NCBI RefSeq assembly: GCF_036971445.1 | Contig: NC_091480.1 | Location: forward strand, 15,066,001 to 15,130,000 | DNA length: 64,000 nucleotides | Source of the DNA: Narcine bancroftii | Lineage: Eukaryota | Direction: 5' to 3' | Shown here: in pieces, positions 1 to 61,375 of the stretch | How positions within the stretch are numbered: position 1 is the first letter of the stretch | How the letters are laid out: every line of letters starts with the position of its first letter | The notes under the pieces: model-generated | The model's database searches: none | What the model saw: the letters and a program-made list of their open reading frames with translations, nothing else | What the model was told of the DNA's origin: nothing | Position numbers and translations under genes: made by a program

Positions 1-765
1 AGCCTTCTTTGTGATTGCATCAATGCGAAGGCTCCAGGACAATCCTCGGAGTTATTGATACCCAGAAATTTGAAGTTGTCTACCCTCTCCACTACTGAGG
101 ACTGGGTTGAGTTCCCCTAACTTCTCCTGAAGTCCACAATAATCTCCTTGGTTTTGCTGACATTGAGCACAAAGTTGTTGTTATTACACCATTCAACGAG
201 CTGATCTATCTTCCTCCTGTACCCTTCCTCATTGCAGTTTGTAATTCTGCCAACAACTGTGGTGTCATCGACAAACTTGTAGATAGCATTGGAATTGCGC
301 CTGGCCACACAATCATGGGTGTATAATGAGTAGCTCATTGGGCTAAGGAAGTATCCTTGGGGTCTGCCTGTGTTGATAATCAGTGAGGAGGAGACACTGT
401 TTCCAATTCGTACTTTGATCTCCCGATGAAAGTCGAGGATCCAGTTGCAGAGGGCTAGAGTTTGTAGCTTCTTAACGAGCACTGAGGGAATAATGGTATT
501 GAAGGCTGAGTTGTGGTCGATGAACAGCAGCCATGTATATGAATTGCTGTTTTCTAGATGATCCAGAGCTGAGTGGAGAGCCACTGATATTGCATTTACT
601 GTGGAGTGATTGTGACGATAGGCAAATTGCAGCGGGTCCAGATCTTTGCTTAGATACATGTTAATTCTGGCCATGACCAGGCTCTTAAAGCATTTCATCA
701 CAGTTGAAGTTGGTGCTACTGAGTGGTAATTGTTGAAGCAGCTTTTCTTGGGTACCAGGATGATT
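1..765 (-). mobile_element. Rex1/Babar-type non-LTR retrotransposon RT fragment (degenerate)
   Basis: ORF 117..890 contains IILVPKK...TSTVMKCF...LDPLQFAYR...SAFNTIIP...CNWILDF...GRPQG...KFVDDTTVVG...LNVSKTKEIIVDFRR, the Rex1/Babar RT signature; runs off the window edge. Confidence 0.85.
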
Positions 766-923
766 GAAGCAGGTGGGAACATCTTGTCAAGAAGGAAAAC
801 ATGTAGCCAAATACTGTTATACTCTTCAGAATTTATTTTTCTATATATTGGAGTATGGCTTCTTTGTAATCCCAGATGCAGCCTTTGCACACTTATCCAT
901 ATTCTGTATGTTCAACTTCACAG

Positions 924-30247: not shown

Positions 30248-30623
30248 TGTTGTATTTCACCAACTATAACTGGGATACAGGGCATGTAAGAGCCAAAATG
30301 TGCCTACTTTGTTAGTCGATGTCCCAGGGTCCATAGGCTGGGCGCGGCCATCTTGATTCCTCTGCGCATGTGTGAGTCTGGTTGGCGCATGCATGAGAGA
30401 TAAGGATGCGAATTCAATATCATCAGACCGATTAATTCTTGTGCATGCACCCACTGAACTCCAATGCGCAAACCCACTTTGCATGCACCAACCAAAGACT
30501 CGCGCACAGGAATCAAGATGCTGCGCCCAGACTATGGACCTGGGACACCAATTAACAAAGGGGTTGAGCACATTTCGGCTCTTAGATGCCCTGTATCCCT
30601 GTTATAGTTTGTCAAATACAACA
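30248..30623. mobile_element. Palindromic (fold-back) MITE with ~140-bp TIRs, TGT...ACA ends
   Basis: Left TGTTGTATTTCACCAACTATAACTGGGATACAGGGCATGTAAGAGCC versus right reverse complement TGTTGTATTTGACAAACTATAACAGGGATACAGGGCATCTAAGAGCC; partial copy at ~24390-24580. Confidence 0.8.
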
Positions 30624-31829: not shown

Positions 31830-32861
31830 CTTCAGGTGGGTGAATTGTTGGAAGCCATCTGGCCAAGATGATGTGCATGGCTACATCTTCAAAATACCAC
31901 TGGCTGAAGTTTTTGCAGACTTTAACAACCTCTAGCTGTTATGTTCTAAGTTTCCCACCTGATTGAGAAGGACATCTATTGAACTGATGTCCAAACAAAG
32001 CAAAGTAACCTGCCTCAATGACTATCAGCTTGTGGTTTTGCATCTACATCTTTTGAGAGGTTGATTAGATCTCTGGAAGGATCTAGACTCACTTCAATTT
32101 GGCTGTTGTCACAGAGGTCAATGGCAGTTGCCATCTCGCTAGCTCTCCACTCTACATCAGATCACCTAGAGTACAAGTATACCAGGCTGTTTTATATTGG
32201 CTACAGCTTAGTGTTTAACACCATCATAACACCAAAACCTGTGATCAAACTAAGGAATCTGGAACTCTTGTTCCACCCTCCTTAACTGCATCCTTGAGTT
32301 CCTCATCTGCAGACCCCAATGAATGCAAATTGGCAGTAACATTTCATCCTCACTGACCATCAACACGCACACCTCTGGGCTGCCTAGTTAGTGACCTGAT
32401 GTATTCCCTATGCACTCATGATTGTATAATCAGGATCAGCTCCAATGCATCCATAAATTCGCTGGTGACTCAACAGTTGTTGGTAGAATAATGGGAAATT
32501 GAGTCAGAATGCTGAATCATGAATCTGATTGCATGGTGCTGGAATGACGTTTTCTCTCAATGTCAGTAAAGTCAAGAGGCTAATTGTGGATTTTAGGAAG
32601 AGGGGGGTTGAAGAATTACACACCCATCCATATTGATGGAATGACTGTGGAGAAGGTTAGTTCCTTCAAGTTCTTGGGAGTCCACATACCATGAGGACAT
32701 TTCTGGAACCAACACTTTGAGGGAACTGAAGAAGGCACACCAATGACTCTACTTTCCAAGAGGTCTGAGGAGATTTACATATCATCAAATACTCTATCAA
32801 ACTTCTACAGGTCTACTTTGAAAAGTATACTGATTGGTTCCATCATGGCATGGTTTGGTAA

Positions 32862-32864
<3 letters not shown>
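31830..32864 (+). mobile_element. Old Rex1/Babar LINE, 5' part (target of the L1 insertion)
   Basis: ORF 32061..32285 AISLALHSTSDHLE...FNTII..KL; continues after the L1 at 38903-39180. Confidence 0.8.
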
Positions 32865-32892
<28 letters not shown>

Positions 32893-33139
32893 TTTATTTT
32901 TCACACCATAAATCACAATACCCATGATATACACTTTTTCTTTTCCACACATTTACAGTGACTTTTTCTCCCTCCCCCCTCCCTCCTCCCAAGCCACCCC
33001 CCCATCCCTCCCCCCTCTCATCCATTTTAGTTATACAATCTAGGTTGCATTAATTCAGTTAGACAATGTTGTCATTCAACAAAAATACACCAGAAATTCT
33101 ACTGAGTCCATTTTTTTCTTCTCTTCTCCTTCCATCAAC

Positions 33140-36100
33140 TTAGGTAATGTTTGTTCCCGGTAGGTTTTCGCTATTGTATTTAATGTAAGGCTCCCAAACT
33201 TGTTCGAATATTTCAATATTATTTCTTAAACTATATGTTATTTTTTCTAATGGAATACATTTATTCATTTCTATATACCATTGTTGTATTTTCAAATTAT
33301 CTTCCAATTTCCAGGTTGACATAATACATTTTTTTGCTACAGCTAGGGCTATCTTAACAAATCTTTTTTGTGCATCCTCCAAGTCAATTCCAAATTCTTT
33401 ATTTTTTATGTTACTTAGGAGAAAGATCTCTGGATTCTTTGGTATATTGTTTTCTGTTATTTTATTTAATATCTGATTGAGATCATCCCAAAATTTTTCT
33501 ACTCTCTCACATGTCCAGATTGCATGAATTGTTGTTCCCCTTTCTTTTTTACATCGAAAACATCTATCAGATACTGTTGGGTCCCATTTATTTAACTTTT
33601 GCGGTGTAATGTATAGTCTGTGTAACCAATTATATTGTATCATACGCAGCCTCGTATTTATTGTATTTCTCATCGTTCCAGAGCATAACTTCTCCCATGT
33701 TTCCTTTTTTATCTTTATATTTAAATCTTGTTCCCATTTTTGTTTAGTTTTACCATTTGTTTCCTCATTTTCCTTTTCTTGCAGTTTAATATACATATTT
33801 TTTATAAATCTTTTGATTAACATTGTATCTGTAATCACATATTCAAGGTTACTTCCCTCTGGTAAACTCAAGTTGCTTCCTAATTTATCTTTCAAGTAGG
33901 ATCTCAGTTGGTAATATGCCAGCGCTGTATCTCCCGTTATATTGTACTTATCTCTCATTTGTTCAAAGGATAAGAATCTACTTCCTGAAAAACAATTTTC
34001 TATTCTTTTAATCCCTTTTTTTTCCCATTTTCTAAAGGCAAGGTTGTCTATTGTAAAAGGGAGTAGCTTATTTTGCGTCAATATTAGTTTTGGTATTTGG
34101 TAATTTATTTTATTTCTTTCTACATGTATCTTCTTCCATATATTGAGGAGATGGTGTAATACTGGAGAAGTTCTATGTTGTACCAATTTTTCGTCCCATT
34201 TATATAATATGTGTTCAGGTATCTTTTCCCCTATTTTATCTAATTCTAGTCTCGTCCAGTCTGGTTTTTCCCTTGTTTGATAAAAATCTGATAGGTACCT
34301 TAATTGTGCGGCTCTATAATAATTTTTGAAGTTTGGCAATTGTAAGCCTCCTTGTTTATACCATTCTGTTAATTTGTCTAGTGCTATCCTCGGTTTCCCC
34401 CCTCTCCATAAAAATCTCCTTATTATTTTCTTTAACTCTTTGAAGAATTTTTCTGTCAGTTGTATTGGCAATGCCTGAAATAAGTATAGTATCCTTGGAA
34501 AAATGTTCATTTTAATACAGTTTATCCTTCCTATCAGTGTTAGTGGTAGCTCTTTCCAATGCTCCAAATCGTCCTGTAACTTTTTCATTAGTGGATTGTA
34601 ATTGAGTTTATATAATTGGCCTAGATTTTTGTTTATTTGCACACCTAGGTATCTTATTGCCTGCGTTTGCCATCTGAATGGGGATTCCTCCTTAAATTTT
34701 GAGAAATCCGCATTATTCATAGGCATTGCTTCACTTTTATTTACGTTTATCTTGTATCCCGACACTTCTCCATATTCCTTCAATTTCTTATATAGTTCTT
34801 TTATTGATAGTTCTGGTTCTGTTAAGTACACTATCACATCATCCGCAAACAGACTGATTTTATATTCCCTGTCTTTTATTTTTATTCCTTTTATATTATT
34901 ATCTCTTCTTATCGATTCTGCTAGTGGTTCTATAGCTAGCGCAAACAATAATGGTGATAGTGGGCATCCCTGCCGCGTTGACCTGCTTAAGTTAAATTGC
35001 TTTGATACATGTCCATTTACTGTCACTTTCGCTAACGGTCCCTTATATAATGCTTTAATCCAATTAATATACTTCTCCGGTAAACTGAATTTTTGCAATA
35101 CTTTGAACAAGTAATTCCATTCTACTCTGTCGAAGGCCTTCTCTGCGTCTAAAGCAACTGCTACTGCCGGTGCTTTATTTCCTTCTACTGCATGAATTAA
35201 GTTAATAAATTTACAAATATTGTCTGTTGTGCGTCTTTTTTTGATAAATCCAGTTTGGTCTAAATTTACCATTTTCGGTACCTGTTCTGCTAATCTGTTC
35301 GCTAATAGTTTAGCTATTATCTTATAATCTGTGTTTAGCAAAGATATTGGTCTATATGACGCTGGTGAGAGTGGATCTTTCCCTTGTTTTAGTATCACTG
35401 TAATTATTGCTGTTTTACATGAATCTGGTAAGTTTTGTGTCTCATCAATCTGGTTGATTACATCCAGGAGGGGCGGTATTATTAGGTCTTTAAATGTTTT
35501 GTAGAATTCTATTGGGAGTCCATCCTCTCCTGGTGTCTTATTATTTGGTAAATTTTTTATTATCTCTTGTATTTCTACTGTTCCAAATGGTTCTGTTAAT
35601 TTATTTTGTTCCTCTATTTGTAGTTTTGGTAGTTCAATTTTAGTCAAAAATTCATCTATTTTCCCTTCTTTCCCTTCGTTTTCGGTTCGGTATAATTGTT
35701 CATAGAATTCTCTGAAGTTTTCCTTAATTTCTTTTGGATTATATGTAATTTGTTTGTCTTTTTTCCTTGTTGCCAATACCATTTTCTTAGTTTGCTCTGT
35801 CTTAAGCTGCCATGCTAGGATTTTGTGTGTTTTTTCCCCTAGTTCATAATATTTCTGTTTTGTCTTCATTATATTCTTCTCCACCTTATATGTTTGTAAT
35901 GTTTCATATTTTATTTTTTTATCCGCCAATTCTCTTCTTTTGGTTGTATCTTCCTTTATTGCTAATTTTTTTTCTATGTTTATTATTTCCCTTTCCAACT
36001 GCTCTGTTTCCTGATTATAGTCCTTCTTCATCTTGGTTGCATAACTTATTATTTGCCCTCTAATGAATGCTTTCATTGCGTCCCATAGTATAAACTTATC

Positions 36101-36937
36101 TTCCACTGATTCCGTATTTACTTCAAAGTACATTTTTAATTGTTTTTCAATAAATTCTCTAAAATCCTGTCTTTTAAGTAGCATGGGGTTTAATCTCCAT
36201 CTATACATTCTTGGAGGGATGTCTTCTAGCTCTATTGCCAATAACAGGGGTGAGTGGTCCGATAATAGTCTAGCTTTATATTCCGTTTTCCTAACTCTCC
36301 CTTGTATGTGGGCTGATAACAGGAATAGGTCTATCCTTGAGTATGTTTTATGTCTAGTCGAGTAGTATGAGTATTCCTTTTCTTTTGGGTTTTGTTTCCT
36401 CCATATGTCCACAAGTTTCATTTCTTGCATAGATTTAATTATAAATTTGGTTACTTTGTTCTTCCTGTTAATTTTTTTCCCCGTTTTATCCATATTTGGA
36501 TCCAAATTCAGATTGAAATCCCCTCCTATTAGTATGTTCCCTTGCGTATTAGCTACCTTCAAAAAGATATCTTGCATAAACTTTTGATCTTCTTCGTTAG
36601 GTGAATATATATTAAGTAGATTCCAAAGCTCTGAATATATCTGACATTTTATCATAACATATCTCCCTGCTGGATCTATTATTTCCTCTTCTATTTTAAA
36701 TGGCACATTTTTGCTAATTAATATAGCCACTCCTCTTGCTTTTGAATTATACGATGCTGCTGTTACATGTCCTACCCAATCTCTCTTTAATTTCTTGTGC
36801 TCCAATTCAGTTAAATGTGTTTCTTGGACAAATGCTATATCTATTTTTTCCTTTTTCAGTAAATTTAGTAGTTTCTTCCTTTTAATTTGGTTATGTATTC
36901 CATTAATATTTAGAGTCATATAGTTCAGCGTAGCCAT
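33140..36937 (-). CDS. L1 ORF2p: APE endonuclease, reverse transcriptase, C-terminal CCHC zinc knuckle (1265 aa)
   Basis: LNINGI, VQETH, GGDFN, YSRID, SDH (APE); PGEDG, YRPISLLNTDYK, LDAEKAFD, RQGCPLSP, LFADD, YLG (RT); CFRC...HAIWTC. Confidence 0.97.
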   Translation of the reverse strand: MATLNYMTLNINGIHNQIKRKKLLNLLKKEKIDIAFVQETHLTELEHKKLKRDWVGHVTAASYNSKARGVAILISKNVPFKIEEEIIDPAGRYVMIKCQIYSELWNLLNIYSPNEEDQKFMQDIFLKVANTQGNILIGGDFNLNLDPNMDKTGKKINRKNKVTKFIIKSMQEMKLVDIWRKQNPKEKEYSYYSTRHKTYSRIDLFLLSAHIQGRVRKTEYKARLLSDHSPLLLAIELEDIPPRMYRWRLNPMLLKRQDFREFIEKQLKMYFEVNTESVEDKFILWDAMKAFIRGQIISYATKMKKDYNQETEQLEREIINIEKKLAIKEDTTKRRELADKKIKYETLQTYKVEKNIMKTKQKYYELGEKTHKILAWQLKTEQTKKMVLATRKKDKQITYNPKEIKENFREFYEQLYRTENEGKEGKIDEFLTKIELPKLQIEEQNKLTEPFGTVEIQEIIKNLPNNKTPGEDGLPIEFYKTFKDLIIPPLLDVINQIDETQNLPDSCKTAIITVILKQGKDPLSPASYRPISLLNTDYKIIAKLLANRLAEQVPKMVNLDQTGFIKKRRTTDNICKFINLIHAVEGNKAPAVAVALDAEKAFDRVEWNYLFKVLQKFSLPEKYINWIKALYKGPLAKVTVNGHVSKQFNLSRSTRQGCPLSPLLFALAIEPLAESIRRDNNIKGIKIKDREYKISLFADDVIVYLTEPELSIKELYKKLKEYGEVSGYKINVNKSEAMPMNNADFSKFKEESPFRWQTQAIRYLGVQINKNLGQLYKLNYNPLMKKLQDDLEHWKELPLTLIGRINCIKMNIFPRILYLFQALPIQLTEKFFKELKKIIRRFLWRGGKPRIALDKLTEWYKQGGLQLPNFKNYYRAAQLRYLSDFYQTREKPDWTRLELDKIGEKIPEHILYKWDEKLVQHRTSPVLHHLLNIWKKIHVERNKINYQIPKLILTQNKLLPFTIDNLAFRKWEKKGIKRIENCFSGSRFLSFEQMRDKYNITGDTALAYYQLRSYLKDKLGSNLSLPEGSNLEYVITDTMLIKRFIKNMYIKLQEKENEETNGKTKQKWEQDLNIKIKKETWEKLCSGTMRNTINTRLRMIQYNWLHRLYITPQKLNKWDPTVSDRCFRCKKERGTTIHAIWTCERVEKFWDDLNQILNKITENNIPKNPEIFLLSNIKNKEFGIDLEDAQKRFVKIALAVAKKCIMSTWKLEDNLKIQQWYIEMNKCIPLEKITYSLRNNIEIFEQVWEPYIKYNSENLPGTNIT

Positions 36938-37537
36938 TTTATATTTTGTTTATCTTCTCTTTCCGTTTTTCCATCATTACCTTTCCTCCTTTTCCATTTC
37001 TGTTTTCTTATTTTCAACTCTTTACCAGACAACATTCCTACAACATCCAACATTTTCCTTATTCTCCTATTTCTATCTTCTTTATCCCCAATCTCCCCTT
37101 CCCCTCCTGAGTTGCCCTTTATCCCTTGTCGGACAACCACATCTCCCCTCTCCATTTGGATTTGCGAATCCACTCGCAAGCGTCAACTGATTTTGCAGTG
37201 ACCGCTCTTTTCCCCCCACCCAGCCCCCCCCAGAAAAGATTTCGTTTTTTATATGTCACAAAGGTCACTCTTTTAGTTCCCTCCTTATTCTCTCTATTCC
37301 ATTACCTTCCCTTATTAATTCTTGTCTATACTTTCTATGTTTTCCTCTAATTACAGATACTTTCACATATGCCCGTTGTCTCTATTCACTCTTATACCTC
37401 TTTACCCGCATACATATCAATCGTGGTCATTTTTACCCTCCTTACCCGTCTTCATCCCTCAGTCTATTTTTGTCTTTACCCACATACATATCAATCGTGA
37501 TAATTTTTGCTCTCATTACCCGTCTTCATCCCTCAGT

Positions 37538-38767
37538 CTATTTTTGTAATTGTTCTGCAAATTTTCGTGCTTCTTCTGGATCCGAGAATAGTCTGTTTTG
37601 TTGTCCTGGAATAAATATTTTCAATACCGCAGGATGCTTCAGTGTAAATTTATATCCTTTCTTCCATAAAATCGCTTTTGCTGCATTGAACTCTTTTCTC
37701 TTCTTTAGGAGTTCAAAGCTTATATCTGGATAAATGAAGATTTTTTGCCCTTTATACTCCAGTGGTTTGTTGCCCTCTCTTACTTTTTCCATTGTCTTCT
37801 CCAGCACCTTTTCTCTTGTAGTATATCTTAGGAATTTTACTACAATAGATCTTGGTTTTTGTTGTGGTTGTGGTTTAGGGGCCAATGCTCTATGTGCCCT
37901 TTCTATTTCCATTTCTTGCTGTAGTTCTGGACATCCTAGGGCCTTAGGGATCCATTCTTTTATAAACTCCCTCATATTCTTGCCTTCTACATCTTCCTTA
38001 AGGCCCACTATCTTTATGTTATTTCTTCTGTTATAATTTTCCATTATATCTATTTTTTGGGCTAGTAATTCTTGTGTCTCTTTAGTTTTTTTATTAGATT
38101 CCTCCAATTTCTTTTTTAAGTCTTCTACCTCCATTTCTGCTGCTATTGCCCGTTCTTCCATCTTGTCCATTTTTTTCCCCATTTCTGTTAAGGTCATATC
38201 CATTTTATTTATTTTCTTTTCTGTGTTGTTTATTCTTCTTCTTAAATCATTGAATTCCTGTGTTTGCCATTCTTTAAATGACTCCATGTATCCTCTAACA
38301 AGAGCAAGTACCTCCTTTACCTTGCCTATCTTTTCTTCTTCTATTTCCCTGTACTCTTCCTCTTCCTCTTCTTCTTCCTCTAGGTTGACCATCTGTTGTT
38401 TCTTTGCTGCCCTTTCCTCCTCTTCTTTCTTGTTTCTATTGTCTTCTGTGGTCTCTTCTTGCTGCAGGTGTTCTGCAGCTGTCGTTGCCGGCTGTGGAGA
38501 TCGACTCCCCAGCTGGTCCCCCCTCCCGTCGGTGTGTTTTTTTGTATGCGCATCGCGCATGCGCGAGGAGTCGCGCATGCGCGGTTGCGCACTTTTACTC
38601 GGCTCTGTGAGCCATTGTTGTAGTTCTCTTTCTACCGACCTGAGGTAGTGGGGTCTTCTCTCCACAGCGGGCCTCTTCGGACAGGTAAGGCCTTCACCTT
38701 TTTCCTCCGTTGTCTTCTCTTCCTCTCTTCTTTCCGTTGATTTTGATTTTTCTCCTTTTGTCTCCAT
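37538..38767 (-). CDS. L1 ORF1p (coiled coil, RRM, CTD; Transposase_22-like); true start codon uncertain
   Basis: E/K-rich coiled coil, then ENYNRRNNIKIVGL, IERAHR, PRSIVVKFL, IFIYPDIS. Confidence 0.93.
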   Translation of the reverse strand: METKGEKSKSTERREEEKTTEEKGEGLTCPKRPAVERRPHYLRSVERELQQWLTEPSKSAQPRMRDSSRMRDAHTKKHTDGRGDQLGSRSPQPATTAAEHLQQEETTEDNRNKKEEEERAAKKQQMVNLEEEEEEEEEYREIEEEKIGKVKEVLALVRGYMESFKEWQTQEFNDLRRRINNTEKKINKMDMTLTEMGKKMDKMEERAIAAEMEVEDLKKKLEESNKKTKETQELLAQKIDIMENYNRRNNIKIVGLKEDVEGKNMREFIKEWIPKALGCPELQQEMEIERAHRALAPKPQPQQKPRSIVVKFLRYTTREKVLEKTMEKVREGNKPLEYKGQKIFIYPDISFELLKKRKEFNAAKAILWKKGYKFTLKHPAVLKIFIPGQQNRLFSDPEEARKFAEQLQK

Positions 38768-38902
38768 CTTCTTTCCACCTTTATATTCACTTTTCTTTAA
38801 CTTGTATTTCTGTGCCTTTGTATTTTCTCTTGTTTTTCCCGACTTTTCTGGAGAGGGCTGGAGTTCACCGTCCGGCCACTACTCCATCACGTGACTCCTC
38901 CC

Positions 38903-39180
38903 CATGGTTTGGTAATTTGAGAGCTCAGGAATGCAGAATGCTTTGGGAAATAGCAAACATAGCCAAGTCCATCATGGGCTCCAACCTCCCATTCATTGAC
39001 GACATCTGTGAGGCACTGCATCAAGAAGGCAGCCAACATCATACAGGGCCCCCATCTCACGGATTACAACCTGTTCCTTACTGCTACCTTCAGAAGAGAG
39101 GTGCAGAAGCTTGAAGACTTCCACCTCAAGGTTCAAGAATATGTTTTTTCCCAATGGCTATCAAGTTCTTGAACTTCCAC
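38903..39180 (+). mobile_element. Old Rex1/Babar LINE, 3' part (resumes after the L1)
   Basis: Continues (W)FGN...IAKSIMGSNLP...; collinear with other Rex1 3' fragments in the window. Confidence 0.75.
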
Positions 39181-41700: not shown

Positions 41701-42030
41701 TTACATTAGTTATGTGCTGCTTGGGTTTCAGCATGGCTTGAACTTCTTCATGTGTACTTTGAAAGCCATAAAGTCCAAGATGTGCTGGAAGTTACTTGTA
41801 GGTGCTTTGTCTGCTCCATTGATGGTGTACCTTTGAGCCAAGCAGTGGAACAGAGACTTGGTGAAGAGAGGATCCAGATGCACTTTGCATCAGGTCTCAG
41901 CATTTTACCTGGGAAGGGTGGCGGACAAACAGCTAACACGTGTTTGTAGGCACTCGACCCCAGCATCCGCAGACTTTCATGTTTACCTTTATTTGTAGAA
42001 ATAGATTAATTATTTTACTCTCAATGTTTT

Positions 42031-44400
42031 TTTTTAAACTTTATTTATTTGTTCAAAATACAAATAATAAGTAACATATATAACAATAAACAAAACATGA
42101 ATGTTATATTTTATATATATTAAAAAAAAAGAAAGAAAAAAAAGGAAAGAAACCCTTTCAGCCAACTCTTCTAAGGAGAGCCATAAAGAAAAAAGAAAAA
42201 AATAAAGAAAAATAAAGCATACATATTAAAATCTAGTCAATATAAATCAAAATGTAAATATTCTGAATATAACAACCACCTATTAATAAAAAAACTATAG
42301 TTATCTGCAAAACATATGTAATTTTTTCCATTATTAAACAATATTTCATCTCATTATGCCAAAAGTCTCAAATTTAATCATTTCAGATAAAATCATAATC
42401 TCTACCGAACACATGTTTTATCAAAGATCGAACTTGATAAAAATACACTTACGCTTAATCGGACTGTTTAAACCCCGAACATTAAAAGTAGCAAACTTCA
42501 ACTTTGACATATCCACTAATATTACTAAAAACTAATAATATCAATATATAAAGACTCAGATCAACGTAAATAGGCCCTCCAATGGGAGAAAAAGAAACCA
42601 CAAATTAAAGTCTAAATAAAATGAAAATTTTTAAAAAAGATAAAAAGAAACCCCTCCCCCCAAAAAAAAACTACCAAAAGGTAGTAATCCCTAAACAAAA
42701 GTTGGGTGTGGATTACCCACCAGTGGCTGATGACTAGTAGAACATAGAGCAAATTTCTCCCTCGCCAGCCAAACAAAGAATAACAACAAGATATCATAAT
42801 GACATAAAAAGAAAATAAAAATAAAAAATTTCTTCTATTCATCCAAGAAATTCCAGACTCAGCGACCCCATTTCAAAGAAACGGACTCTTTCCATTCCCA
42901 TTTCTACCGTTTCTTCCATTTCCAGAGCAACCAGATTTTTCTTTAGGAGACAATGGTGGGCTACGTCTTTGTCCTCTTACATCTGGCAACGAGTCAGCAA
43001 AACTCATTGCTTCACACTCATTCTCAAAAAACCAAGATTGAAAGTCTCCACAAAACACCTTCAACACTGCCGGATAGCGAAAAGTAGACTTATAACCTTT
43101 ACGCCACAAAACTTCTTTAACTGGATTAAATCGACGCTGACGCTGAATAACCTCTTGACTCAAATCAGGATAGAAAAAAACTCTACTGTTCTGAATCATT
43201 AACGGAGCTTGTCGTTGTCTCGTGTTTTGGACTGCTGAATTAAGTATCGTTTCTCTGTCCAAATAATTCAAACATCGAATTATCACGGGTCTCGGTGGTT
43301 GACCAGGCAGAGGTCTTCTTCTTAAGGCTCTATGAGCTCTTTCCAATACCAGACCTCCAGAGAAAAATTCCTGCCCCAGTATTTGTGGAATCCATTCGGT
43401 AAAAAAACGAAGAGGATCTTGTTCTTCCATACCTTCTGGCAAACCAACAATCTTCACATTATTCCTTCTACTTTGATTCTCCAAATAATCTACTTTCCTC
43501 TCTAACTCCCTCTCACGTTCTCGCAATTCTTTAACAGATTCTTCCACCTCCAACACTTTTTCTGTATTGGAAGTCACTTGTTGTTGACATTTCAAAAAAG
43601 CAGCCTGAAATTGTTTAAAATCCTCACAAGATGCTTCCAAATGTATTTTAACTGTATCCAGTTCCAAACTGAGCCTCTGAGACATGAATGATAGGCTGAA
43701 TGATAAGGCTTAGCTGTTTACATTGTAATTCAGAAAAGCTCAGCCTTGCCTTCTCTTGCGTAGTGGCAGAACCAGGTAACTGCAGCTCCTGCTGCATCTC
43801 AACAACAGGCAGTTTAACAGTTTTACTGCGGGTCTGGACTCCCAGCGACGGCACCCCGACTTCCTCAGCGGGCCGACGCTGTTCTCCCTCTGCAACCCGT
43901 TGATGCTTCAAAAACTCACAAAAAAGACCAAAATATTCAGATTGGAGTATATCCTGGGGTATTTCAAGCAATGGAGTCGTCTTCTTGCGTACCCCCTCCG
44001 TTAAAGTCAGCAGGCTGCCAGAATCAGGATCCACATCGGGGGCACACGCACCTTCCTCCTGAGAACGGGTAATTCCAGCGATGTCCTTTTCCTGGTGAGT
44101 AGTAGTCATTTTTTCAGCTCCCACAGGAATTCTCTGTGGTTTAGGTTTGAAAAAAAGCAAACCTGAAGTTGTAGCAGACTGTTTAGGCTCTAAATCTTCA
44201 ACACTCCGAAAATGTAGTTTCTTCTGTACTTGAGGTTTAATCTTTTTACTATTAACAGCCATAACAATTCCTTGATCATTTAAACTAAGTTTTTAAAAAT
44301 TTAAACCTGAAAACAAAGAATTAAAAACGGGTTCTTAAAAGTCTGGCCAGAGAGGTCGAGATTACACGTCTAGACTCTACGCCATCTTGCCATGCCCCCC
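42031..44400 (-). mobile_element. Internally deleted L1 of a second family: ORF1 retained, ORF2 almost gone (HAL1-like)
   Basis: TSD ACTCTCAATGTTTT at 42017-42030 and 44401-44414; 5' GGGGGCATGGCAAGATGGCG; ORF1; ORF2 scraps at 42237-42510; AATAAA and short poly(A). Confidence 0.92.
42873..44262 (-). pseudogene. L1 ORF1p of the HAL1-like element, split by one frame change near 43650-43700
   Basis: ORF 43648..44262 (N-terminal part) overlaps ORF 42873..43685 (LENQSRRNNVKIVGLPE, LERAHR, PRPVIIRCL, FFYPDLS). Confidence 0.85.
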
Positions 44401-45099
44401 ACTCTCAATGTTTTGAACTATGTGTTTTCCATGAAATTTGGTTTTTTTAGTTTTATCAATCTTGTGAGTTTTTAAAAATATTTCTATCAAAACTAAGCAA
44501 GATGAACTGATGATTTTGGGGGGGCAAATACAAGACGATGTGGCATATGATGAAGTTACCAAGACTGAGGACTTTGGTGTGCAGGGCAACAGTCTATAAC
44601 ATTGAGACTACTTGCATTACTCAGCTAATTCTCCCTTGTCGGTCATGGCATGGTGAATCCAGGCTCTAGGCTGAGTTCACGATGATCCAAATCAACTTTG
44701 GACCTCTTTATGGCATCTGACTTGTCCATGGTGACAAAAATAGGATTTTAATGTTACTTGAGGAGGTGTAAGTAATCTTTCAACAAAATATGGAGGGACA
44801 GCTATAGTCTATCTTTTGATTAAATTTATTTTGTTTTTTGATGCCTTTCATCTCAGCCACACAATAGCTTGTATTCAGACGAGTGCTTCCATATTTAGCA
44901 AAGATTAAGTTTTTCATCGTTTATTAATCAAAAGATGTAGGTGATTCTTGACTTAACTTGTGTCTGTCTTATTAGCTAATTTTACAGTGTGAGAAGTCTG
45001 GAGCCCAATTATTTTTCATCCTTCCACTGAAGTGAAAAGCTTCTCTCAAGAGGCATGTTTCATCAAATTCATATTATCAAGCACTATTGTTAACAGTGA

Positions 45100-61019: not shown

Positions 61020-61375
61020 ACTAAAAAAACACAAGGCTGGAGAAACCCAGCAGGTCAAGCAGTGTCCTTTTTATAGCAAAGAAAAAGATGCAGAACCATC
61101 ATTTTGAGCTTGAGCCCTTCATCAAGGAATGGAAAAATGTCGGCAGGCATCAAAACAAAATAATCCACTTATTACCTCCTGTCTTGGGGACTGTGCTTCT
61201 CCTCTACTATTTTGTTCAGATGCCTGCTGAGATTTTTCCTTACCTTGATGAAGGGCTCAAGCCCAAAACAATGATCTATTTTTACTATATACATTAATTA
61301 CACTGTTTGACCTTCTGAGTTTCTCCAGCCTTGTGTTTTTATTTCAACCATGGTGTCTGCAGACTTTCGTGTTTA
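61020..61375. mobile_element. Penelope-derived fold-back element with ~140-bp inverted arms
   Basis: AAAAACACAAGGCTGGAGAAACCCAGCAGGTCAA...TTGAGCCCTTCATCAAGG...GCAGGCATC versus GATGCCTGC...CCTTGATGAAGGGCTCAA...TTGACCTTCTGAGTTTCTCCAGCCTTGTGTTTTT. Confidence 0.8.

What the first reader, a model, noticed from the sequence alone, without database searches (positions are those of the whole stretch)
42031..44400. HAL1-like 'half-L1': ORF1-only retroelement with TSD and two deletions through ORF2
Seen: a 2.37-kb minus-strand element with a 14-bp TSD (ACTCTCAATGTTTT), an intact 5' end, an ORF1 of ~460 codons (one frame change), a ~360-bp spacer and AATAAA plus poly(A). ORF2 is reduced to three joined scraps: start MSKLKFATFNVRGLNSPIKRK (ATG at 42510), middle YQVRSLIKHVFG (~42439-42404) and end WHNEMKYCLIMEKITYV...RWLLYSEY (42361-42237). 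These correspond to MATLNYMTLNINGIHNQIKRK, YQLRSYLKDKLG and WYIEMNKCIPLEKITYS...VWEPYIKY in the intact L1 nearby, so roughly 3.5 kb is missing in two deletions. Established: ORF1-only HAL1 elements are described in mammals. Inference: this may be an independently arisen non-autonomous HAL1-type family in a cartilaginous fish, mobilised in trans.
Basis: partly seen in the sequence, partly recalled or inferred. Interest (0 to 1): 0.75.

Follow-up and report, generated by a model that had tools for sequence, protein, structure and literature searches.

The report
Half-L1 retroelement family in cartilaginous fish
This 2.4-kb stretch is one damaged copy of a many-copy jumping-gene family, likely from a ray or shark, that kept the first LINE-1 gene, lost almost all of the second, and likely borrowed its copying enzyme from intact LINE-1s, a lifestyle already known from mammals.

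Summary
Observation confirmed: 14-bp TSD, L1-type 5' end, ~464-codon ORF1, 362-bp spacer and three collinear ORF2 scraps missing ~3.5 kb. Contigs of four public runs show a high-copy family. In run X1, flanks have depth 11-17 and interior bins 5,700-130,000. All four runs, one labelled as another organism, hold contigs that differ from this copy yet cross deletion junction 1. Copies with unlike 5' flanks exist. The ORF1 frameshift is not shared by the contigs that span it. Junction 2 is weaker: crossed by a non-self contig only in X1, while 31 contigs there continue as undeleted ORF2, so it may mark a later subfamily. The nearby intact L1 is not the parent. No autonomous parent was retrieved, and selection on ORF1 was not shown. 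Verdict: a HAL1-type, ORF1-only non-autonomous L1 family, likely of independent origin in a cartilaginous fish. This is a new member of a known kind. My searches found HAL1 described only for mammals (Repbase and Dfam not searchable). The scan noted ORF1-only elements before in two other genomes.

The parts
44401..44414 (.). 5' target-site duplication copy (14 bp); on the element's sense strand the site reads TC/AAAA
   Evidence: X1 contig record 8 spans 44374-44650 with 0 differences at depth 12.2
44263..44400 (-). 5' UTR (138 nt): starts with six G; YY1-type motif CAAGATGGC at element nt 12-20 (44381-44389); likely internal Pol II promoter
   Evidence: the motif and its position match the mammalian L1 5' consensus quoted in PMC5381506; unlike flanks behind 44398 in 7 (X6) and 5 (X8) contigs
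43691..44262 (-). ORF1, N-terminal part (~190 codons), little conserved
43686..43690 (-). frame change in this copy; the contigs that span it are 5 nt longer
   Evidence: table 4: X1 21/21, X5 72/75, X6 356/364, X8 200/200 depth, from 1-2 contigs per run
42873..43685 (-). ORF1, C-terminal part (likely coiled-coil end, RRM, CTD) of L1 ORF1p type
   Evidence: phmmer to the solved LINE-1 ORF1p chain 2yko_A, E=1.2e-6; 60-62% to Narcine bancroftii proteins
42511..42872 (-). T-rich inter-ORF spacer, 362 nt
   Evidence: T-rich spacers are typical of fish L1 (PMC5381506)
42441..42510 (-). ORF2 scrap 1 (start codon and first ~23 codons); reads on across junction 1 to a stop after 29 codons
42362..42442 (-). 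ORF2 scrap 2 (~aa 1008-1034 in nearby-L1 numbering) between junction 1 (~42441) and junction 2 (42362/42361); 1-nt frame slip at 42397
42237..42361 (-). ORF2 scrap 3 (last ~41 codons and stop); 1-nt frame slip at ~42306
42031..42236 (-). T-rich 3' UTR, overlapping AATAAA signals (42049-42040), 5-nt A tail
   Evidence: no folding beyond shuffles
42017..42030 (.). 3' target-site duplication copy (14 bp)
   Evidence: X1 contig record 1 spans 41750-42053 with 0 differences at depth 11.4

Best explanation
This is one damaged copy of a high-copy L1-derived family that keeps ORF1 but only scraps of ORF2; it likely arose by internal deletion of a T-rich fish-type L1 and likely spread like HAL1, its RNA likely coated by its own ORF1 protein and likely copied into new sites by ORF2 protein borrowed from intact L1s. 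Shown: the anatomy; single-copy flanks against a many-copy interior; junction 1 in other copies; other 5' flanks; and the absence of this copy's ORF1 frameshift from the contigs that span it. Inferred: transcription from the 5' UTR promoter (YY1-type motif), ORF1p acting in cis, trans-supplied ORF2p, and target-primed reverse transcription at TC/AAAA giving the 14-bp TSD. The most likely history is stepwise. Deletion 1 (~2.95 kb, removing endonuclease and RT) founded the family. Deletion 2 (~0.55 kb) followed in a sub-lineage, which would explain the stranded 80-nt middle scrap. This copy later lost its ORF1 frame.
For: TSD and scraps. X1 flank bins have depth 11-17 against interior bins of 5,705-130,116 (median ~30,000). 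The bins holding the junctions (75,566 and 68,144) do not dip; summed depth is no copy number. Position 42447, about 6 nt from junction 1, carries a non-self base in 41/1/2/6 contigs of X1/X5/X6/X8. The best piece in each run passes the junction by at least 23/44/27/28 nt. X5 record 10 (organism B) spans 42398-42505 at depth 18.7 against flank depth 2. Mean X1 contig depth is ~9.5x flank depth at 42447 and ~110x at 42387. X6 and X8 have zero depth in the outer flank bins yet hold junction-1-crossing contigs, and show unlike sequence behind 44398 in 7 and 5 contigs. No loose end at junction 1 is among the 24 shown. None of the 24 ORF1 substitution rows examined creates a stop. Precedent for the mechanism: an ORF1-only RNA is mobilised by ORF2p in trans and needs RNA-binding-competent ORF1p (10.1101/2024.05.03.592410, passages).
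Against: Junction 2 is crossed by a non-self contig only in X1, by at least 25 nt, which is short of the tool's 31-nt bridging rule. In X6 and X8 the best such pieces are only guaranteed to reach 42362, and in X5 they do not reach the junction. 31 X1 contigs and 5 X8 contigs show a loose end at 42361, which in X1 reads as undeleted ORF2. 1013 of 1037 loose-end rows and 247 of 287 substitution rows were hidden, so the rarity of parent-type sequence at junction 1 and an open family ORF1 are not proven. One X8 contig has a 1-nt loss in ORF1 at 43889 (166 of 190 depth there). No selection signal on ORF1: 10 of 24 sites are synonymous against 29% expected, p=0.14. No autonomous parent ORF2 was retrieved. 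No whole second copy with its own TSD was seen. ORF1-less derivatives exist at low depth, so ORF1 in cis may not be essential.
Confidence: 0.8

Rival explanations
1. The family is defined by deletion 1 only (~2.9 kb long, keeping the last ~260 ORF2 codons); deletion 2 is confined to this copy and very few others.
For: 31 X1 contigs continue upstream of 42361 as in-frame ORF2 with the same K-9-W spacing as the nearby L1. Junction 2 is not shown crossed in X5, X6 or X8. X5 record 10 crosses junction 1 but leaves the reference at 42398.
Against: An X1 contig with the non-self base at 42387 covers at least 42337-42437. No loose end on the middle-scrap side of 42362 is among the 24 rows shown. The undeleted contigs could equally be 5'-truncated autonomous copies.
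Confidence: 0.25
2. The element spread as a SINE-like passenger: only its promoter and poly(A) end matter, and ORF1 is baggage that decays without selection.
For: No significant synonymous excess. Low-depth joints remove ORF1 while keeping both ends: 42739->44311 in X1 (depth 26.9) and 42983->44376 in X6 (depth 138.5).
Against: ORF1 bins are as deep as the ends (median ~29,600 in X1), so ORF1-containing forms dominate among what was laid. The frameshift is not shared by the contigs that span it. The test used 24 sites, mostly this copy's own post-insertion changes, and has little power.
Confidence: 0.15
3. A one-off, dead-on-arrival event: a single L1 lost ORF2 during or after insertion, and the high depth comes from ordinary autonomous relatives.
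For: Parent-type sequence exists at junction 2. No whole second copy was seen, and no genome was available.
Against: Non-self contigs cross junction 1 in 4 of 4 runs, two of them without flank cover and one from organism B at ~9x its flank depth.
Confidence: 0.04
4. Copies were multiplied by DNA-level duplication (segmental or tandem), or the junctions are assembly artefacts.
For: One X1 contig joins a 5' end to a 3' end through 33 nt, a head-to-tail pair (table 5c).
Against: Flank depth is single-copy. Both element/flank borders are matched exactly by contigs. 5' flanks in X6 and X8 agree only ~0.5 among themselves. Most X1 contigs are 90-99% alike, not identical.
Confidence: 0.04

Closest known systems
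HAL1 (half-L1) of mammals, e.g. rat RNHAL1 and guinea-pig HAL1 (Smit 1999; Bao & Jurka 2010, seen only through citing papers PMC5753468, PMC3627910, PMC2241872, PMC13756887)
   Same: L1-derived, ORF1 kept and ORF2 deleted, multi-copy, L1-type 5' end and poly(A) end; HAL1s are said to have arisen several times independently (PMC5753468).
   Different: Host is likely a cartilaginous fish and the ORF1 is closest to batoid L1 ORF1s; it has a short 5' UTR, T-rich spacer and 3' UTR of fish-L1 type, and three ORF2 scraps from two deletions. Long-term ORF1 coding constraint, reported for guinea-pig HAL1, is not shown here.
ORF1-present bipartite non-autonomous LINEs of insects: HeT-A (Jockey clade) and Ag-Sponge (CR1 clade) (PMC5786205, passages)
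   Same: ORF1-only elements that depend on an autonomous partner's RT.
   Different: They come from other LINE clades; HeT-A is telomere-specific, whereas this copy has an ordinary TSD.
Engineered ORF1mneoI reporter (10.1101/2024.05.03.592410, passages)
   Same: Experimental model of the proposed mechanism: 5' UTR plus ORF1 RNA, mobilised by ORF2p in trans and dependent on functional ORF1p.
   Different: A human or mouse construct, not a natural family.
Spliced integrated retrotransposed elements, SpIREs (PMC5860796, passages)
   Same: Internally deleted L1 copies with intact ends.
   Different: SpIREs arise by splicing and are described as dead ends. Here the undeleted sequence before junction 2 does not end in AG, and junction 1 has been amplified.

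Membership tests
HAL1-type (ORF1-only non-autonomous L1) | Derived from L1: L1-type ORF1 and ORF2 remnants | tested here: met
   2yko_A E=1.2e-6; scraps collinear with an L1 ORF2
HAL1-type (ORF1-only non-autonomous L1) | ORF2 (endonuclease and RT) absent between intact ends | tested here: met
   ~274 nt of ORF2 left, ~3.5 kb missing; the remnant reading stops after 29 codons
HAL1-type (ORF1-only non-autonomous L1) | Deleted form amplified as a family | tested here: met
   Junction 1 crossed by non-self contigs in 4 of 4 runs; unlike 5' flanks in 2 of 4
HAL1-type (ORF1-only non-autonomous L1) | Both junctions shared family-wide (this exact 2.37-kb form) | tested here: inconclusive
   Junction 2 crossed by at least 25 nt in X1 only; undeleted form in 31 X1 contigs
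HAL1-type (ORF1-only non-autonomous L1) | TPRT hallmarks: TSD, poly(A) signal and tail | tested here: met
   seen for this copy only, and the tail is short
HAL1-type (ORF1-only non-autonomous L1) | ORF1 open in the family and under purifying selection | tested here: inconclusive
   Frameshift not shared and no stop in 24 rows examined, but 247 rows hidden; synonymous excess not significant
HAL1-type (ORF1-only non-autonomous L1) | Mobilisation in trans by an autonomous L1 ORF2p | not testable with these tools
   Inferred; an intact L1 of another lineage lies 3.1 kb away, and no parent ORF2 was retrieved
Mammalian HAL1 lineages (descent) | ORF1 and UTRs descend from a mammalian L1 or HAL1 | tested here: inconclusive
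   Closest ORF1s are batoid (60-62%), and the solved LINE-1 ORF1p is a distant match. No mammalian HAL1 sequence was available and the tree is weakly supported; independent origin is likely but not formally tested
SpIRE (splicing-derived L1 deletion) | Junctions at GT..AG splice sites | tested here: not met
   Junction 2: the undeleted sequence ends in GA, not AG, before 42361 (table 7). Junction 1 is not testable without the parent

The most novel reading that the evidence does not exclude
A HAL1-type family that arose independently in cartilaginous fishes, outnumbers its autonomous parent, and is preserved as a shrinkage series in one genome (full L1, one deletion, two deletions, ORF1-less derivatives). 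It would extend the half-L1 strategy beyond mammals and give a natural test of whether cis-made ORF1p is what lets an RNA capture ORF2p in trans.
Probability: 0.4. Interest if true: 0.6.

Novelty: new member of a known kind. Interest (0 to 1): 0.42.

Why it matters
ORF1-only L1 derivatives are described for mammals. My eight literature searches showed none described for fishes, but Repbase, Dfam and the primary HAL1 paper could not be read. An abundant, independently derived case in a cartilaginous fish would show that 'keep ORF1, borrow ORF2' recurs across jawed vertebrates. With many copies 90-99% alike, it would make two questions directly testable: whether ORF1 is under selection in cis, and whether non-autonomous L1s arise by stepwise deletion. 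It also matters for repeat annotation, since ORF1 pieces of related batoid elements appear in public gene models. It is not a new kind of system.

Tried and rejected
No whole genome is held, so the direct junction BLASTN could not be run. The nearby intact L1 was rejected as parent. Searches for the parent ORF2 found nothing: scrap 3 gave 2 candidates and none scored; scrap 1 gave no candidate. Among 150 ORF2 C-terminal representatives, none was close to the scraps beyond the shared family motifs. Pfam returned no family for any of the three ORF1 frames. No match in metagenome or viral contig collections. No RNA holder is listed: X6 and X8 are only guessed to be RNA, so nothing is claimed on expression. 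No RNA structure beyond shuffles in 6 of 6 segments, z from -1.33 to +1.07. No tRNA or Rfam match in the window. The ORF1 tree has 2 of 11 inner branches supported and does not resolve the element's place. Synonymous test: 26 of the 40 displayed rows lie in ORF1; I dropped 2 at the frameshift. Of 24, 10 are synonymous (6 of 17 near-fixed, 4 of 7 variable among copies; Fisher p=0.39), which is inconclusive. My scrap-3b frame was off by one and was corrected. Earlier-finding look-ups by sequence and place were empty. Bao & Jurka 2010 is not held; no supplements were read, and repeat libraries in genome-paper supplements may already list this family.

Full report
Observation. The element lies on the minus strand between two exact copies of a 14-bp sequence (42017-42030, 44401-44414; chance expectation 0.07). 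From its 5' end it has: six G and a CAAGATGGC motif at nt 12-20; a 138-nt 5' UTR; ORF1 from 44262 to 42873 in two frames; a 362-nt T-rich spacer; about 274 nt of ORF2-like sequence; a T-rich 3' UTR; AATAAA; and five A before the TSD. The C-terminal ORF1 frame matches the solved LINE-1 ORF1p (2yko_A, E=1.2e-6). Its closest named relatives are batoid proteins (Narcine bancroftii 60-62%, a Hypanus sabinus gene model 51%), which is the only basis for calling the host a cartilaginous fish.

ORF2 scraps. I aligned every stop-free segment of at least 10 aa downstream of ORF1 to the intact ORF2 at 36937-33140. The middle scrap is weak alone. It falls on a Y/F-Q-V/I-R motif seen in other ORF2 C-terminal proteins, and likely continues to 42362 past a 1-nt slip that about half of the X1 depth at that position lacks. 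About 983 and 185 codons are missing. The remnant ORF2 reading ends after 29 codons. The nearby L1 is only a yardstick: no blastn similarity, ORF1 41% identical, and an A-rich sense strand where this element is T-rich outside ORF1.

Family or single event. No genome was held. Nine public runs hold the stretch, and I laid 4 of the 9: X1, X5 (organism B), X6 and X8. All are contigs, laid at 85% likeness. In X1, which may be the assembly's own sample, both element/flank borders are matched without a difference at depth 11-12. Flank bins are 11-17 and interior bins 5,705-130,116. Summed contig depth is no copy number, but mean contig depth at three interior sites is 92-110 times flank depth. Of 11,415 X1 contigs, 1,716 are at least 99% alike, 3,383 are 95-99%, 4,374 are 90-95% and 1,942 are under 90%.

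Junction 1. At 42447, about 6 nt from the junction, 41, 1, 2 and 6 contigs (X1, X5, X6, X8) carry a base that this copy lacks. The table's 'from_end' value matches the distance to the end of the aligned piece in three listed records. On that reading, the best piece in each run passes the junction by at least 23, 44, 27 and 28 nt. X5 record 10 spans 42398-42505 with 4 differences at depth 18.7, against 2 on the flank. X6 and X8 have no depth in the outer flank bins. They also show 7 and 5 contigs with mutually unlike sequence beyond the 5' end, meaning other insertion sites. No loose end at junction 1 is among the 24 rows shown of 1,037. Junction 1 is therefore shared by other copies.

Junction 2 is less secure. 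One X1 piece with the non-self base at 42387 covers at least 42337-42437, crossing by 25 nt or more, which is under the tool's 31-nt rule. X5, X6 and X8 do not show a crossing. Against family-wide sharing, 31 X1 contigs and 5 X8 contigs leave the reference at 42361. The X1 loose end translates as ten codons that place Lys and Trp at the same spacing as the nearby ORF2. These may be 5'-truncated autonomous copies or a family with deletion 1 only. The second reading gives a simple history, deletion 1 first and deletion 2 later, which explains the stranded middle scrap. The undeleted sequence does not end in AG before the breakpoint, so canonical splicing is unlikely for junction 2.

ORF1. The contigs that span the frame change are 5 nt longer (72 of 75, 356 of 364, 200 of 200 and 21 of 21 depth; 1-2 contigs per run), which gives a 464-codon frame. 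None of the 24 ORF1 substitution rows examined makes a stop. However, 247 of 287 rows were hidden, and one X8 contig has a 1-nt loss at 43889. Ten of 24 changes are synonymous against 29% expected (p=0.14); most are this copy's own later mutations, so selection is untested. Low-depth joints that remove ORF1 (42739->44311 in X1, 42983->44376 in X6) show still shorter derivatives. The 33 letters between the sides of the first joint align to the spacer, so its true break is near 42772.

Mechanism. Shown: anatomy, TSD, and amplification of the junction-1 form. Inferred from established L1 biology: Pol II transcription from the 5' UTR, ORF1p binding its own RNA, capture of ORF2p from an autonomous L1, and target-primed reverse transcription. 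The YY1 motif heads almost all mammalian L1s (PMC5381506, passages; PMC11602158, passages). The target reads TC/AAAA; the TT/AAAA endonuclease consensus is recalled, not from a call. An engineered ORF1-only RNA is mobilised this way and needs RNA-binding-competent ORF1p (10.1101/2024.05.03.592410, passages). The donor of ORF2p is unknown. The parent was not retrieved, and the intact L1 3.1 kb away is of another lineage.

Comparison. HAL1 is a non-autonomous L1 derivative encoding only ORF1p that arose several times in mammals (PMC5753468, passages; PMC13756887; PMC2241872; PMC3627910). HeT-A and Ag-Sponge are the insect parallels (PMC5786205, passages). This element works like HAL1 and meets the structural and multi-copy criteria; ORF1 selection and trans-mobilisation are untested. 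It likely does not descend from mammalian HAL1, though my tree does not resolve this. Searches (listings and abstracts) showed no HAL1-type element described for fishes. Term look-ups for HAL1 found none in PMC5203782, PMC5381603, 10.1101/2025.06.08.657570 or PMC5860796. Bao & Jurka 2010 was not held, Repbase and Dfam are not searchable here, and no supplements were read. The family could already be in a repeat library. The scan holds two earlier notes on ORF1-only elements in other genomes, not checked by me.

Verdict. A real HAL1-type family (confidence 0.8), a new member of a known kind, interest 0.42. The boldest reading not excluded is an independently born fish half-L1 that outnumbers its parent and preserves a stepwise shrinkage series (probability 0.4, interest 0.6).

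Noticed in passing
window 32849-38918 (-): Full-length L1 with both ORFs open (ORF1 409 aa from 38767, ORF2 1265 aa with endonuclease and RT), a 16-bp TSD (32849-32864, 38903-38918), a long A tail and a 74-bp tandem duplication in the spacer. PMC5203782 reported only L1 fragments for Chondrichthyes (passage).
   Followed up: partly
window 44381-44389 (-): The element's 5' end closely follows the mammalian L1 5' consensus with its YY1 motif, whereas the nearby intact L1 starts differently. This hints at deep conservation or convergence of the L1 initiator.
   Followed up: partly
window 42739-44311 and 42983-44376 (joints in runs X1, X6): Shorter derivatives that keep the 5' end and the 3' part but lose most or all of ORF1; SINE-like offshoots at low depth.
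   Followed up: partly
window 44398 -> 42029 (run X1): One contig joins a 5' end to another copy's 3' end through 33 nt: a head-to-tail pair elsewhere.
   Followed up: no
window 44364: The share of the alternative base differs strongly between runs (23% X1, 11% X5, 77% X6, 98% X8), and X8 depth peaks at the 5' end. A 5' subfamily variant may be enriched in the runs guessed to be RNA.
   Followed up: no
window 117-911 (-): 264-codon frame with an RT domain (RVT_1, E=3.8e-23), another LINE fragment.
   Followed up: no
window 30248-30623 and 61025-61340: Self-complementary elements of ~320-380 bp with terminal inverted repeats, MITE-like.
   Followed up: no
P0001, P0003-P0007: Public batoid gene models, one named syntaxin-binding protein 6, consist largely of L1 ORF1 sequence: likely annotation contamination by related elements.
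   Followed up: no
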